The position numbers were made by a program. Shown one piece after another: positions 3,001-6,000 of a stretch of 64,000 bases of DNA. Where the stretch lies: assembly GCF_057098645.1 (NCBI RefSeq), contig NZ_CM169472.1, one strand, 5' to 3'. The stretch's first letter is position 1; each line of letters starts with the position of its first letter.

Positions 3001-6000
3001 ATTTTTCGCCATCCTTGTCGGTGAAGAGGAAGTAGAACGGCCCCTCACGCTCTACAGATGGTTCGACTTCCACTTTGCATTCGGTTTTTTCGTTGTCCGG
3101 AATTGCCGTTTCCACTGCATCAGTTTCTGGTACTGGCGACGAGAGAGTATCAGTTGCGCTCTGATTTGTTCCTTCATCTTCAAACACGCCCTTTGTAGTC
3201 AGGTATTCAGTAATGTATTTGTTCAGTGCCACAGGGTCTTTGTGAATGTCGATCGGACGTTCACGGACAAGGCCAAAAATAGTCTGGCGGTCGTAGCGAA
3301 GGGCATCAGGCTGTTTGCGCATTGATGCCGAGATACGCTTCCAGTCTTCGCGGTCGTTGTCGATAACTTCATTTTTTGCCCAGCGATGGATGCTGCCGTC
3401 AATGTTTCCGGCATCCACATCACCAGGCCAGAGAGCGTAGGCCAGTTCGTCATCCAGTGTTTTCCATGTCTGCTTGTATTCGCGATGAATGGCAGCAATG
3501 ACCGGGCTGATTTTTCCTGTTGAATTTTCAGTGTGCTGTTGATTGGTTCTGGCGCGGGCGAGATCAACAACAGACGTGTATTTTCCGGTTTCTTTGCGTT
3601 CACCTTCGCGACGTTTTTTCCAGATGCGCATCTCTGCCTGAATTTCGGGCCATTTGGCACCAGGCTTACATTTATGCTTAACCCACCCGATGGCATGCAG
3701 CTTAAGCTCCGGATACATGGCGTTAACTTCTGGCATTTTCATCAACGCTTCAACGATATGTCCGTCGAATGTTGCCATGTCTTCCTGCAACAATTCCTGT
3801 GCGCTAATAACCATATCAACGGTGATGTTTTCACATGTGTCGAACTTAACCATGACAGCGTTCTGTACTTCAGGGGCCAGCTTGTCAAAAGTGACGTTCA
3901 TCGGATCTGATTCAGTCTCAACCGGAACAAAGGAAGCAGACTCCTCATCCCAGCGGTTTTCCTGCATATATTCAGCATCCCATGAATCGAGGGCAGGGCG
4001 GGGTATGCCAGGTTTATCCTCGCAGATAATAAATTTATAAGCGCAGTCCTGAGCAGCCGGATAATGTTCCAGGAATTGCCAGTGAAATTTTGCTCGAGCA
4101 CGGCGTTCGTCGCCAGCTTCAATAGCTGTGGCTACAGCCACAGCGCCTTCTTCCCTTGTTGCCAGTTCGTCAGGAATGGCGGCGCAAATAAAGACTTTAC
4201 TCATTTTGTTTTAACCTCATGACAGATTTAAGGATGAACAAATCCCTGCCATTGCTGGCATATAAGAATGAAACCGGATATTTATTACGGAACTGTTTTA
4301 AAGACCTGCCGGGATTTCGATATTATCCTAGTGAATAACTTTATCGACCGGGTAACAGTTACCGGGAATTTTCTGTTCGGTTGCTGCAGTCATACACTCC
4401 TGCATTGTCCTGTGAACACTGACTGCAATATCAACTGGCTCTCCGGAAACAAGAAAAACTGTCAGAACAAGCGCAAATGCTGAATTCATTGTGCACATCC
4501 TTTTGGCATCAGACGTAAACGAGCCAGCATTGAAACAATGCATATTTTATTTAATAGCTCCCGTTCTTGTTTTCTCTTGTTAATGGCATCTTCAGTAAAT
4601 ACAGGGTTACTGATAGTGACACCAATTTCAAAACAACCTTCAGACGTATTAACGTTTGGTAATAACGTTTCCATTATCTCGTCCTCAACAATGAATTTTT
4701 AGTAATTGCTCCACAGTCATATTTTTAATTGCGCTCCGGTTTACAAGAGTCCAGCCTTGTTTCTCCAGATAAAACTGGAAGGTATCCAGGGTGCAGACCA
4801 TTGCGCCGTCCGGAACGGTTTCAGTGAATTTGATATTGCCGTGTTCGTCGAGACGGATAACCAGGGTACGTCCGTCCCCGTGAATCATTTTGTCGGGAGA
4901 CGGGGCGTTATTCTGGCGCAGTTCTTTCTCCATGCGATCGAACTCAGCGATGTAGGCTTCTTTAAATGCAGCGGCTTTTTTGCCGGTGAAGCCCATCACC
5001 AGGAAAACGAAGCCGTTTTTGGTGATTTGGTACATTGGGAGTTTGCGACCGGTTGAGTCGGTATATTCGCTCGACACAAAATTGTGCTCAGTGAATTTTG
5101 CTGAACAGTCCAGATTGCGAATTTTATCCAACACTCGTTCGTGGCGTTTACCAAAGAACTCAGCGATCGCAATAGACGTAGTGACAGCGCGTCCATTTTC
5201 GATGGTTACGTCAGGGTGAGAAAGGGTATGGATAGTAGCCATGATGGCAGCCTCGATAGTCAGTTTAAATAACTCACCACCAAGGCTTTCCACGACCATA
5301 AGGGTGGTGAGACGTACAGGGGTGGAAATACCGGTGACTACCGAAACCGGCCAGCCTTTCGGCTGCCCTGCACGCCCCACCATAATCTGAATGTGGCTGT
5401 GCATTACGCATAAAAAAACCGCATGAGCGCGGTTATGCGCAGTAGTCATCATCGGGTTTCCACGCCCGGCACCCGCTTTATGAGGTGCAGGTGCACTATA
5501 ATTCCACCCGTTCTGGTTTTCAATAGCTACATTCAACATTTTCTCTTACCCTTCATCACCGAAGTGAACTTTGTTGATGCAGTGCCTGGTGCCTCCAGGT
5601 GACGTTAACCAGTTAACAATTAACGCCGGATACAGAGAATCCAACCATAACACTGTTTTTGGTTTTAACTGTTCCGCGTGCGCTTAGCCGCATTCACCGC
5701 ATCACAAAATTCACTTTAAAAAGGGCGGCAGAGCAGTCACGGAGTAAAACTGATACCGCCAAACGTCACCAGAAAATTGATAACAGAGGGCGTTGCAGCG
5801 GGGTTGTCACTTAAGCGTATGGTCAACCTGACAACCCGGTGTCCTCAACGGGGGAAGGAATAACCCCGCCATACTTACCGCCGCGCCATTTCGCGGATTG
5901 CCACAACCGGAAGCGCACGGTCGACGAAAATTTAACGACAGGCTATCTATGAACCAGCTACCTCGCCGTGCGCTTTCGCGTTATGGTCTGACTTTTCAGG

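What the first reader, a model, noticed from the sequence alone, without database searches (positions are those of the whole stretch)
5242..5523. P1-type c4 antisense-RNA switch upstream of the Rha-family gene, with both a1/b1 and a2/b2 target pairs
On the minus strand a near-consensus promoter (TTGAAA, 17 nt, TATAGT; 5523-5495) precedes a 76-nt fold at 5381-5306.

The fold:
- A 16-bp closing helix: GGUGGGGCGUGCAGGG pairs with CCCUGUACGUCUCACC (three G-U pairs).
- A CAGCC-GAAA-GGCUG hairpin.
- A GCCGGU/ACCGGU hairpin with the loop UUCGGUAGUC.
- An 8-nt junction strand AUUUCCAC.

Complementary sites:
- The loop is complementary (9-10 bp, 1-2 G-U) to GACUAUCGAG at 5261-5252, which runs into the GAGG Shine-Dalgarno of the Rha ORF (ATG 5242).
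- The junction UUUCCAC is perfectly complementary to GUGGAAA at 5293-5287.
- A second copy of both targets lies upstream of the fold: GUGGAAA at 5463-5457 and GACUACUG at 5447-5440.
- The 5'-to-3' order of the targets is the reverse of the order of the complementary elements in the fold, as antiparallel pairing requires.

This is the architecture I remember for the 77-nt c4 RNA of the P1/P7 immI operon. There, a' and b' act on a2/b2 at the icd-ant ribosome-binding site, with decoy a1/b1 upstream. Here the regulated gene is a Rha-type regulator embedded in a Qin-like dicF-dicB operon. The tracked 284-aa ORF would wrongly translate this whole leader.
Basis: partly seen in the sequence, partly recalled or inferred. 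Interest (0 to 1): 0.65.

Follow-up and report, generated by a model that had tools for sequence, protein, structure and literature searches.

The report
Prophage C4 antisense-RNA immunity switch
This stretch of an E. coli prophage encodes a known kind of small antisense RNA (the C4/CI family of phages P1 and P4) that masks the ribosome-binding site of the regulator gene next to it; it is a genuine but ordinary member of that family, and the long protein frame overlapping it is probably part of the switch rather than an annotation error.

Summary
The Rfam C4 model (RF01695) matches 5387-5300(-) at 79.3 bits (threshold 45). The fold scores z = -6.6, and in 50 distinct homologues 95.9% of pair cells are paired, with 17 of 27 pairs showing compensatory changes. 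Across 44 loop/junction "specificity types" from viral contigs, the a1/b1 and a2/b2 sites co-vary with the junction and loop at fixed positions, and b2 always runs into the Shine-Dalgarno.

- The a1/b1 segment is a separate 77-nt sRNA with its own terminator. It matches Rfam isrK, which also hits P4 seqA.
- The studied homologue is Salmonella Gifsy-1 isrK-orf45-anrP. Its "orf45"/STnc1160 is a C4 RNA, and its published compensatory mutants are a1:a' pairs.
- The 284-aa ORF is probably not spurious. The frame starting at the conserved AUG of the C4 fold avoids stop codons family-wide (1/27/26 by frame). It equals Pfam "Ash", and it is translated in P4 (eta/kil) and Salmonella (orf45).

Verdict: core claim supported; new member of a known kind; modest interest.

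The parts
5495..5523 (-). Sigma-70-type promoter (TTGAAA, 17 nt, TATAGT); the predicted transcription start is about 5488
   Evidence: 10 of 12 matches. Promoter-like hexamers sit at the same offset from a1 in nearly all 43 specificity types. It corresponds in position to PisrK (Gifsy-1), PLE (P4) and P51b (P1).
5412..5488 (-). IsrK-like 77-nt leader sRNA carrying a1 and b1
   Evidence: Rfam isrK RF01394 scores 63.6 bits (threshold 50), full length. The same model hits the P4 seqA leader and Gifsy-1 IsrK. The c4-a1b1 model RF03163 gives a sub-threshold hit at 5501-5449 (24.6 bits).
5457..5463 (-). a1 (GUGGAAA), in the loop of the second IsrK hairpin; complementary to a'
   Evidence: The position (-81 from the fold) and sequence co-vary with the junction in 44 of 44 types.
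5440..5448 (-). b1 (UGACUACUG), in the single-stranded linker; complementary to the b' loop
   Evidence: An own-loop match is found in 41 of 44 types against 22% of cross pairs.
5412..5434 (-). Intrinsic terminator of the IsrK-like RNA (stem 5434-5417, U-run 5418-5412)
   Evidence: A terminator lies between b1 and C4 in 41 of 43 types. Read-through of this terminator was shown experimentally in Salmonella.
5300..5387 (-). C4 antisense RNA; the predicted mature species is 5381-5303 (79 nt) by analogy with the annotated P1 c4 ends
   Evidence: Rfam C4 RF01695 scores 79.3 bits. Fold z = -6.6. Covariation: 95.9% of cells paired, 17 of 27 pairs compensatory.
5335..5346 (-). b' loop (UUUCGGUAGUCA) of hairpin 2; a specificity determinant
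   Evidence: There are 28 loop variants on the same scaffold. The own loop ranks first against its own downstream flank in 66 of 79 loci.
5322..5329 (-). a' junction strand (AUUUCCAC); the second specificity determinant
   Evidence: In Gifsy-1 the equivalent residues C159 and C162 pair with IsrK G31 and G28, as shown by published compensatory mutants (mapping).
5287..5293 (-). a2 (GUGGAAA)
   Evidence: An a2 site lies +8 to +12 after the fold in 42 of 44 types, against 8% of cross pairs.
5251..5262 (-). b2 (UGACUAUCGAGG), overlapping the GAGG Shine-Dalgarno of rha
   Evidence: The b'/b2 duplex is -14.8 kcal/mol (13 of 500 shuffles do as well). A b2 site ending in GGAG(G/A) is found in 41 of 44 types.
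5237..5297 (-). Predicted two-tier hairpin that sequesters the translation start. Inner stem: 5287-5276 pairs with 5260-5249 (b2 and the Shine-Dalgarno). Outer stem: 5297-5290 pairs with 5244-5237 (the AUG).
   Evidence: -31.1 kcal/mol, z = -6.06. The Shine-Dalgarno window is paired in 37 of 43 types. This is a prediction only.
4685..5242 (-). rha short form (185 aa), from the start codon next to the Shine-Dalgarno
   Evidence: Pfam Phage_pRha matches aa 21-106, E = 4e-31. The start context GAGGCTGCCATCATGGCTAC is shared with P4 kil.
4685..5539 (-). Long in-frame ORF (284 aa; Ash-type extension plus Rha). ATG 5539 lies upstream of the internal promoter. A third in-frame start is the conserved C4 AUG at 5383 (232 aa).
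   Evidence: PGAP annotates it; Pfam Phage_ASH covers the leader; frame kept open family-wide. For the P4 eta precedent.
5723..5774 (-). dicF (upstream context in the same operon)
   Evidence: Rfam DicF scores 76.7 bits.
4486..4674 (-). dicB (downstream context; probably subject to polarity from the switch)
   Evidence: Pfam DicB E = 1.4e-40. The polarity is inferred.

Best explanation
This is a complete C4/CI-type antisense-RNA immunity cassette. It sits in the early-left (dicA-ydfABC-dicF-...-dicB) operon of a lambdoid E. coli prophage and gates a Rha-family regulator.

Proposed operation (each step marked as inferred or by analogy):
1. An internal promoter (5523-5495) fires in the lysogen.
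2. Most transcripts stop at the terminator (5434-5412). This gives a 77-nt IsrK-like RNA that displays a1 in a hairpin loop and b1 in a linker.
3. Read-through transcripts carry the C4 fold. By analogy with P1 it is cut out by RNase P and other processing, giving a stable RNA of about 79 nt (5381-5303).
4. The C4 junction (a') and loop (b') pair with a2 and b2 on read-through mRNA. b2 covers the rha Shine-Dalgarno, and a local hairpin additionally buries the Shine-Dalgarno and the AUG. Rha is therefore not translated, and the untranslated RNA is probably terminated by Rho. That would keep Rha, and any dicB expression driven from this promoter, off (inferred from P1 and P4).
5. There are two probable routes to release:
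   (a) Excess IsrK-like RNA pairs through a1/b1 with a'/b' and neutralises or unfolds C4, as IsrK does in Salmonella, where anrP translation rises more than 100-fold.
   (b) Transcripts from the upstream early promoter are translated from ATG 5539, or from the C4-embedded AUG at 5383. Ribosomes then read through the whole leader in frame into Rha, which melts the C4 fold and the target sites. This is how P4 eta, transcribed from the late promoter, escapes CI immunity.
For: Shown here:
- Rfam C4, isrK and DicF hits.
- A stable fold, and a promoter and terminator.
- Helix covariation in 50 homologues.
- Independent co-variation of a sites with the junction and b sites with the loop, at conserved positions, in 44 specificity types. 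Own matches were found in 41-44 of 44 types, against 8-22% of cross pairs.
- A terminator in 41 of 43 types, and Shine-Dalgarno sequestration in 37 of 43.
- The C4-AUG frame is nearly stop-free: 1/27/26 stop trinucleotides by frame. In the distinct hypervariable elements the counts are 1/7/8 (loops) and 0/2/7 (junctions).
- The leader is open in the gene's frame in 30 of 43 types, against 4 and 12 in the other frames.

From relatives:
- The curated P1 anatomy is the same.
- The Gifsy-1 locus has the same Rfam elements. Terminator read-through, a processed RNA of about 80 nt, trans-activation by IsrK, a1:a' compensatory mutants and translation of the C4-frame ORF have all been shown there experimentally (mapping).
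- IsrK and STnc1160 are constitutively expressed in lysogens.
- In P4, eta/kil are nested genes and translation prevents termination. P4 eta carries the same Pfam Ash match over seqA and CI.
Against: - No expression data exist for this locus. Processing, trans action, Rho polarity and use of any of the three start codons are all inferred.
- In the window alone the a2 and b1 matches are no better than chance.
- The Salmonella authors explain their data by cis alternative structures plus translational coupling, not by trans repression from a C4-like RNA. Constitutive STnc1160 did not relieve IsrK toxicity in their hands.
- Their a1 mutants raised basal expression, which a pure decoy model does not predict.
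- ATG 5539 has only a weak Shine-Dalgarno (AAGAG).
- Stop-codon avoidance is measured on related sequences, so the statistics are approximate.
Confidence: 0.8

Rival explanations
1. Pure P1-style reading. C4 acts only as a trans-acting translational repressor of rha. a1/b1 is a passive decoy. The 284-aa ORF is an annotation artefact that is never translated.
For: The Rfam hit and the a/b site co-variation. The real start with a good Shine-Dalgarno is ATG 5242, and the Rha domain begins only at aa 120 of the long ORF. ATG 5539 has a weak Shine-Dalgarno and lies upstream of the internal promoter.
Against: Stop codons are avoided specifically in the C4-AUG frame, even within the hypervariable loops and junctions. 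The leader is open in the gene's frame in 30 of 43 types. P4 eta and Salmonella orf45 are translated through the homologous region. P1 is the one family member with an in-frame stop, so P1 is the exception and not the model.
Confidence: 0.25
2. IsrK/orf45 model of Hershko-Shalev et al. The element works mainly in cis. The read-through mRNA folds into an inactive structure in which a1/b1 pair with the 3' half of the C4 region. Free IsrK-like sRNA displaces that pairing and exposes the AUG at the 5' end of the C4 region. Ribosomes translating that ORF then open the rha start. The processed C4-like RNA is a by-product with no repressor role.
For: Genetic, native-gel and toeprint-type data in Salmonella. 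The window has the same parts, and here the C4 AUG is directly in frame with rha. A Shine-Dalgarno/AUG hairpin that needs unwinding is predicted.
Against: This model does not use a2 or b2. Yet those sites co-vary with a' and b' at fixed positions in 41-42 of 44 types, and b2 always overlaps the Shine-Dalgarno. That is expected only if a'/b' pair with the downstream sites. The window's leader MFE keeps the C4 fold rather than forming the cis a1:a' structure. In P1 and P4 the homologous RNA is a proven trans-acting immunity factor (established knowledge; P1 annotation, P4). The double mutants in Salmonella did not restore repression (224 and 327 units against 4), which fits a' also needing a2.
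Confidence: 0.35
3. P4-style transcription-termination control. The C4 RNA pairs with a1/b1 and a2/b2 on nascent transcripts mainly to cause premature termination (at the IsrK terminator and at a downstream Rho site). Translation is affected only indirectly.
For: The upstream element matches the same Rfam model as P4 seqA. A terminator follows b1 in 41 of 43 types. P4 immunity acts through termination. Salmonella a1 mutants increase downstream expression, and transcriptional fusions rise 8-fold with IsrK.
Against: b2 overlaps the Shine-Dalgarno in essentially all types, which points to a primary translational block. In Salmonella translation rose 139-fold against 8-fold for transcription. The two mechanisms are not exclusive, because a translational block leads to Rho polarity.
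Confidence: 0.3
4. Protein-only reading. 5539-4685 encodes a two-domain Ash-Rha protein, as PGAP and Pfam annotate. The RNA fold and complementarities are incidental.
For: PGAP annotates the 284-aa CDS. Pfam Phage_ASH matches aa 14-108 at E = 3e-19. The frame is open.
Against: 17 of 27 helix pairs show compensatory double changes. The targets co-vary with the loop and junction. Three Rfam covariance models hit above threshold. The same leader precedes unrelated proteins (Kil, Rha, ORF6N/AnrP, Bro/ANT-like, Icd). In Gifsy-1 the C4 frame is out of frame with anrP. The Salmonella paper reports that the nucleotide sequence is conserved while the amino-acid sequence varies.
Confidence: 0.03

Closest known systems
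Salmonella Gifsy-1 isrK-orf45(STnc1160)-anrP locus (Hershko-Shalev et al. 2016, PMC4825925)
   Same: The order of parts is the same: promoter, IsrK sRNA with a1/b1 and a terminator, C4 fold, a2, b2 over the Shine-Dalgarno, then an antirepressor-type gene. The same Rfam models hit (isrK 79.3 bits, C4 69.0 bits). The spacing between the terminator and the C4 fold is also short.
   Different: - The specificity sequences differ: a' is ACGCCAA and b' is UCGGUGAU in Gifsy-1, against AUUUCCAC and GGUAGUCA here.
- The downstream protein is an ORF6N-domain protein, not Rha.
- The C4-AUG ORF is out of frame there and ends in an AUGA overlap (translational coupling). Here it is in frame with rha.
- The Gifsy-1 locus sits after Q in the late region, not in the dicF-dicB early operon.
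- The published model does not invoke C4-type trans repression.
Phage P4 immunity region (PLE, seqA, CI RNA, seqC, kil nested in eta)
   Same: - The C4 model hits P4 CI (74.9 bits) and the isrK model hits the seqA leader (60.8 bits).
- The start context GAGGCTGCCATCATGGCTAC and the first codons (MAT...HP) are nearly identical.
- A long in-frame ORF starting upstream of the internal promoter reads through the RNA gene, and it carries the same Pfam Ash match.
   Different: - P4 is a satellite. The gated gene is the 65-aa kil, followed by replication genes.
- About 108 nt separate seqA from CI in P4, against 25 nt here.
- P4 immunity is described as termination control.
- P4 eta is translationally coupled to an upstream gene. 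Here an unrelated short ORF stops 6 nt before ATG 5539.
Phage P1/P7 immI: c4 RNA, icd, ant1/2
   Same: The scaffold is the same (Rfam C4 68.8 bits), as is the order a1-b1-c4-a2-b2 with b2 running into GAGG before the first gene. A hairpin plus U-run also follows b1 in the P1 sequence. The output is an antirepressor-type function.
   Different: - The P1 upstream element scores on the c4-a1b1 model (51 bits), where the window reaches only 24.6 bits.
- P1 is the only family member examined with an in-frame stop in the C4-AUG frame.
- The P1 operon is under the C1 operator Op51.
- The first gene in P1 is icd.
Phage P22 sar RNA / ant (immI)
   Same: It is an antisense RNA that controls translation of an antirepressor in a temperate phage. 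A sar homologue is also present elsewhere in this window (39212-39146).
   Different: sar is a true cis-antisense transcript from the opposite strand. It is not a same-strand, processed, structured RNA with two short recognition elements. There is no homology.

Membership tests
C4 antisense RNA (Rfam RF01695; P1 c4 / P4 CI) | Covariance-model match above the curated gathering score, full length | tested here: met
   79.3 bits against a gathering score of 45, model positions 1-87 of 87, E = 7e-14. P1 scores 68.8 and P4 74.9 on the same model.
C4 antisense RNA (Rfam RF01695; P1 c4 / P4 CI) | Three-way fold (long closing helix plus two hairpins plus a single-stranded junction) supported by covariation | tested here: met
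   The MFE equals the Rfam structure, z = -6.6. Of 1333 cells, 95.9% are paired, against 31-51% in the slid controls. 17 of 27 pairs have compensatory changes, and 0 of 500 shuffles reach the observed score. Hairpin 2 is invariant because of how the loci were collected.
C4 antisense RNA (Rfam RF01695; P1 c4 / P4 CI) | Loop b' and junction a' are complementary to a2/b2 downstream, with b2 at the ribosome-binding site of the first gene | tested here: met
   Window sites at 5293-5287 and 5262-5251. Own-against-cross co-variation: a2 in 42 of 44 types and b2 in 41 of 44, against about 8% of cross pairs, at fixed offsets and ending in GGAG.
C4 antisense RNA (Rfam RF01695; P1 c4 / P4 CI) | A second copy of the targets (a1/b1, called seqA in P4) upstream on the same transcript | tested here: met
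   5463-5457 and 5448-5440. Own matches for a1 in 44 of 44 types and b1 in 41 of 44, against 20-22% of cross pairs.
C4 antisense RNA (Rfam RF01695; P1 c4 / P4 CI) | Mature RNA of about 77 nt excised from a longer transcript (RNase P at the 5' end) | not testable with these tools
   The sequence has the same 5' GGUGGGG and 3' CACC(ACC) ends as the annotated P1 c4. A processed species of about 80 nt was seen in Salmonella. There are no data for this locus.
C4 antisense RNA (Rfam RF01695; P1 c4 / P4 CI) | Acts in trans to repress the downstream gene or confer immunity | not testable with these tools
   This needs genetics. It is inferred from P1 and P4.
isrK (Rfam RF01394) / c4-a1b1 (RF03163) leader element | Covariance-model match above the gathering score | tested here: met
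   isrK scores 63.6 bits against 50. c4-a1b1 scores only 24.6 against 46.7, so that model is not met. In Gifsy-1 both models hit the same element, so the two families overlap.
isrK (Rfam RF01394) / c4-a1b1 (RF03163) leader element | Own promoter and Rho-independent terminator giving a short sRNA, with partial read-through into the downstream genes | tested here: inconclusive
   The promoter and terminator motifs are present and conserved. Actual termination and read-through were not measured here.
P4 eta/kil-type nested genes (Pfam PF10554 Phage_ASH) | A long ORF starting upstream of the internal promoter reads through the RNA gene in frame with the short gated gene | tested here: met
   ATG 5539 lies upstream of the -35 hexamer at 5523. 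There is no stop until 4685. It is in frame with the AUG at 5383 and the ATG at 5242. Phage_ASH matches at E = 3e-19, as it does in P4 eta.
P4 eta/kil-type nested genes (Pfam PF10554 Phage_ASH) | The long form is actually translated, and its translation overrides immunity | not testable with these tools
   The only support is indirect: stop-codon avoidance of 1/27/26 by frame, and the P4 and Salmonella precedents.
Rha family regulator (Pfam PF09669) | Phage_pRha domain above the curated cut-off | tested here: met
   E = 4e-31, 107.9 bits against a cut-off of 29.9, at aa 21-106 of the 185-aa form.

The most novel reading that the evidence does not exclude
C4/CI-type immunity RNAs may be systematically dual-coded. 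The antisense-RNA gene would be kept as an open reading frame that starts at the conserved AUG in its own 5' helix strand, or further upstream. Translation through the RNA gene would then be the built-in override of immunity.

In this prophage that would give three nested Rha isoforms (284, 232 and 185 aa), each tied to a different transcript or RNA state. Three corollaries follow:
- The Pfam/PGAP 'Ash family protein' would be the protein shadow of this RNA switch.
- Rfam isrK and c4-a1b1 would be one element.
- The published 'sRNA that activates its own mRNA' (IsrK) would be the a1/b1 anti-antisense arm of a C4 system, whose a2/b2 arm was overlooked.
Probability: 0.45. Interest if true: 0.55.

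Novelty: new member of a known kind. Interest (0 to 1): 0.35.

Why it matters
For this genome the result corrects the annotation. RefSeq shows only a 284-aa "Rha family" CDS and no ncRNA here. In fact two small RNAs and a translational switch control Rha, and probably also DicB, a cell-division inhibitor whose operon affects EHEC physiology.

More generally, the comparative set shows a portable cassette: promoter, a1/b1 sRNA, terminator, C4, a2, anti-Shine-Dalgarno strand, b2/Shine-Dalgarno, and the first few codons. It has at least 44 reshuffled recognition specificities and gates unrelated toxic or regulatory genes. That links three literatures that are usually cited separately (P1 c4, P4 CI/eta-kil, Salmonella IsrK). 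It also suggests direct tests of how prophages escape their own RNA immunity.

None of this is a new principle. Each component has an experimentally studied precedent.

Tried and rejected
- **The 45-aa ORF at 5411..5274.** I first took it to be the equivalent of Salmonella "orf45". It is not. Salmonella orf45 starts at the AUG in the 5' strand of the C4 helix (A107 = 34210 in Gifsy-1). The window's 45-aa ORF starts upstream in another frame, so the equal length is coincidence.
- **RNAcofold of C4 with its targets or with IsrK.** It predicted no intermolecular pairing (ddG = 0). The method cannot represent loop-loop kissing complexes, so this is uninformative rather than negative.
- **The PGAP "DicB pseudogene fragment" (5653-5570).** I checked whether it marks a duplication of dicB made by insertion of the cassette. 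BLASTN found no DNA similarity to the intact dicB region, so this was left unexplained.
- **Unconstrained best-match search for a1 and b1 in the window.** It picked chance sites in the promoter (-127 and -145).
- **Literature.** Forti et al. 1999 (PMC94026) is not held in the library, so it is cited through PMC10111431. No paper was found that links IsrK/orf45 to P1 c4.
- **L029 and about 40 other pattern matches** without a closing helix were chance hits and were excluded.
- **Not used:** protein-database and structure-prediction tools, because the question is at the RNA level.

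
Full report
**1. The observation**

- Promoter: TTGAAA (5523-5518), 17 nt, TATAGT (5500-5495), 10 of 12 matches.
- Fold: 5382-5305 has a 17-bp closing helix, the CAGCC-GAAA-GGCUG hairpin, the GCCGG/CCGGU hairpin with loop UUUCGGUAGUCA (5346-5335), and the junction AUUUCCAC (5329-5322).
- Stability: ViennaRNA returns exactly this structure, at -49.3 kcal/mol, z = -6.6, with 0 of 200 shuffles as stable.
- Targets: a2 at 5293-5287, b2 at 5262-5251 (running into GAGG, 8 nt before ATG 5242), a1 at 5463-5457, b1 at 5448-5440.

Taken alone, the window gives only moderate statistical support. 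The loop/b2 duplex is matched by 13 of 500 shuffles and junction/a1 by 11 of 500. The 7-8-bp a2 and b1 matches are not distinguishable from chance (117/500 and 81/500).

**2. Family assignment**

- The Rfam C4 model (RF01695) hits 5387-5300(-) full length at 79.3 bits (gathering score 45, E = 7e-14). That is higher than P1 c4 (68.8) and P4 CI RNA (74.9) on the same model.
- Directly upstream, 5488-5412 matches Rfam isrK (RF01394) at 63.6 bits (threshold 50).
- The P1-derived c4-a1b1 model (RF03163) gives only 24.6 bits against a threshold of 46.7.
- The isrK model also hits the P4 seqA leader (60.8 bits).
- In Salmonella Gifsy-1 both isrK (79.3) and c4-a1b1 (48.1) hit the same element. Rfam therefore describes one a1/b1 leader element under two names.
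- DicF (76.7 bits) lies upstream and DicB (Pfam E = 1.4e-40) downstream, which confirms the Qin-like operon context.
- The window is E. coli. It is 100% identical to strain C325 and 99.8% to O145:H28 strains. 384 of 5426 complete genomes carry at least 80% of the 601-nt query.

**3. Comparative test of the mechanism-defining features**

A viral-contig scan for the hairpin-2 frame, with the loop left free, gave 79 distinct true C4 folds. They fall into 44 loop/junction combinations (28 loops, 22 junctions).

*Helices.* In 50 distinct sequences (including the window, P1, P4 and Gifsy-1):
- 95.9% of pair cells are standard pairs, against 31-51% when the partners are slid.
- 17 of 27 pairs show compensatory double changes.
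- No shuffle of 500 reaches the observed covariation score.

*Targets.*
- Each C4's own loop ranks first of 28 against its own downstream flank in 66 of 79 loci.
- With position-restricted windows, own-against-cross matches of at least 6 contiguous pairs are:

| Site | Own | Cross pairs |
|---|---|---|
| b2 | 41 of 44 | 8.5% |
| a2 | 42 of 44 | 8.3% |
| b1 | 41 of 44 | 22% |
| a1 | 44 of 44 | 20% |

- The geometry is constant. a2 lies +8 to +12 after the helix. b2 lies about +36 to +44 and ends in GGAG(G/A). The ATG lies +52 to +65. a1 is about 15 nt before b1.
- Loops and junctions have been reshuffled. For example, loop CGUAUGCG occurs with four different junctions, and the a and b sites follow their own partner independently. 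This is the signature expected of a two-element antisense recognition system, and the window's four sites fall exactly in the family positions.

*Other conserved parts.* A terminator after b1 is present in 41 of 43 types, and promoter-like hexamers sit at a fixed offset upstream of a1.

**4. The studied homologue**

The Gifsy-1 locus PisrK-isrK-orf45-anrP-isrJ (PMC4825925) has the same anatomy. Using the paper's numbering (+1 = A34316):
- a1 is U26-U32 (UUGGCGU) and a' is A158-A164.
- The published compensatory pairs G28A/C162U and G31A/C159U are therefore a1:a' pairs.
- G114/C175 is a pair of the C4 closing helix.
- The first AUG of orf45 (A107) is the conserved AUG at the 5' end of the C4 fold.
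- The stable processed species of about 80 nt, STnc1160, is the C4 RNA.

The paper shows read-through of the IsrK terminator, translational silence of the long RNA, more than 100-fold activation of anrP translation by IsrK in trans, and translation of orf45. It compares IsrK/STnc1160 with P4 SeqA/CI but never mentions P1 c4. Its model makes no use of a2/b2, which are present in Gifsy-1 (TTGGCGT, and ATCACCGGAGG over the anrP Shine-Dalgarno).

IsrK and STnc1160 are highly expressed in all conditions in lysogens. A 2025 review still lists IsrK and c4 as unrelated entries.

**5. The long ORF**

RefSeq/PGAP annotates 5539..4685 as a 284-aa Rha family protein and annotates no ncRNA.
- Pfam places Phage_pRha at aa 120-205.
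- Pfam "Ash protein family" (PF10554) covers aa 14-108, which is precisely the translated isrK + C4 + ribosome-binding-site leader.
- The same Ash match covers seqA + CI + the kil start in the long P4 ORF, eta.
- The P4 kil start context is almost identical to the window's rha start.

According to PMC10111431, summarising Forti et al. 1999:
- P4 Kil is the short form, translated on read-through.
- Full-length Eta is translated only from an upstream late promoter.
- Eta translation prevents immunity-dependent termination.

The family data argue that this is general.
- The leader (a1 to ATG) is stop-free in the gene's frame in 30 of 43 types, against 4 and 12 for the other frames.
- Inside C4, stop trinucleotides fall 1/27/26 by frame relative to the conserved 5' AUG.
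- Within the distinct hypervariable elements the counts are 1/7/8 (loops) and 0/2/7 (junctions). The single in-frame stop is in P1.
- A rough binomial on the 25 stops in distinct elements gives about 5e-4. This is approximate, because the sequences are related.

In the window, ATG 5539, AUG 5383 (the C4 AUG) and ATG 5242 (next to the Shine-Dalgarno) are all in frame. ATG 5539 lies upstream of the internal promoter, so it is reachable only from upstream transcripts. An upstream same-frame ORF stops 6 nt before it.

Evidence of translation would not refute the RNA switch.

**6. A further predicted lock**

The region 5297-5237 folds into a two-tier hairpin (-31.1 kcal/mol, z = -6.1). It pairs b2 and the Shine-Dalgarno with a b'-like strand just after a2, and pairs the AUG with the a2 region. 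The Shine-Dalgarno window is paired in 37 of 43 types. This fits the Salmonella observation that anrP translation needs ribosomes arriving from upstream.

**7. Best explanation and rivals**

The locus is a C4/CI-type immunity cassette that gates Rha and, by polarity, possibly DicB.

Shown here: membership, the fold, co-varying targets, conserved promoter and terminator motifs, and the open frame.

Inferred from relatives:
- processing of the RNA;
- trans repression at a2/b2;
- Rho polarity;
- relief by the a1/b1 sRNA;
- relief by translation from upstream starts.

The main rival is the purely cis "alternative structure plus coupling" model from Salmonella. It explains a1:a' pairing, but not the conserved, co-varying a2/b2 sites. 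The P4-type termination model is compatible with the best explanation and not exclusive of it. A protein-only reading is excluded by the covariation data.

**8. Novelty**

The RNA family, the a1/b1 leader, the nested long ORF and the activating role of the leader sRNA all have published precedents. This is a new member: a distinct specificity pair, a Rha cargo, and a location between dicF and dicB.

What may be new is the synthesis: orf45/STnc1160 = C4, isrK = c4-a1b1 = seqA, Ash = the translated switch, and family-wide stop avoidance in the C4-AUG frame. I found no paper stating these points, but the library does not cover subscription journals.

Noticed in passing
window 5216-5500 (-); L122 8330-8704 (-): The Pfam family PF10554 'Ash protein family' (PGAP: 'ash family protein') matches exactly the translated isrK + C4 + ribosome-binding-site leader. 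This holds both here and in P4 eta. The family looks like the protein image of a conserved RNA switch and not an independent protein domain.
   Followed up: partly
L124 34240-34329 (-); window 5412-5501 (-); L122 8615-8692 (-): Rfam isrK (RF01394) and c4-a1b1 (RF03163) hit the same element in Gifsy-1. isrK also hits the P4 seqA leader. The two Rfam families appear to describe one a1/b1 leader class.
   Followed up: yes
window 5237-5297 (-): A strong predicted hairpin (z = -6.1) buries b2, the Shine-Dalgarno and the AUG. Its 5' strand is b'-like. The Shine-Dalgarno is paired in 37 of 43 specificity types.
   Followed up: partly
window 39146-39212 (-): Rfam sar RNA (the P22 immI antisense regulator of ant) scores 66.7 bits. 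This is a second, unrelated antisense control of an antirepressor elsewhere in the same 64-kb window, which implies another prophage or immI module.
   Followed up: no
window 17365-17616; 14497-14667; 15983-16099: Other Rfam hits: STnc100 (147.8 bits) directly abutting AgvB (anti-GcvB sRNA, 96.5 bits) on the opposite strand; a sok antitoxin RNA (hok/sok locus); and the ALIL pseudoknot (IS3-family frameshift element).
   Followed up: no
window 5570-5711 (-): There is a sub-threshold STnc100-like match (33.5 bits) between dicF and the cassette. PGAP calls 5653-5570 an N-terminal 'DicB' pseudogene fragment, yet it has no DNA similarity to the intact dicB at 4674-4486. A short same-frame ORF here stops at TAA 5548-5546, 6 nt before ATG 5539.
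   Followed up: partly
window 5274-5411 (-): A 45-aa ORF overlaps C4 but is in a different frame from Salmonella orf45, which starts at the C4 AUG. The identical length is a coincidence that could mislead annotation transfer.
   Followed up: yes
L002-L121 (downstream ORFs); L122 8365 (-): Unrelated proteins behind the switch (Kil 64-65 aa, Rha, short Rha-like 120 aa, Bro/ANT-like 236-253 aa and others) share the first codons (MAT..., often ...HP). The recombination boundary of the cassette therefore lies inside the coding region.
   Followed up: partly
L026 (minus strand, oriented coordinates 1547-1624 and 2859-2936): One viral contig carries two C4 cassettes about 1.3 kb apart. They have different loop and junction specificities, and each precedes a short Rha-like gene of about 120 aa. 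L054 has a 243-aa ORF that looks like a fusion of two such units.
   Followed up: no
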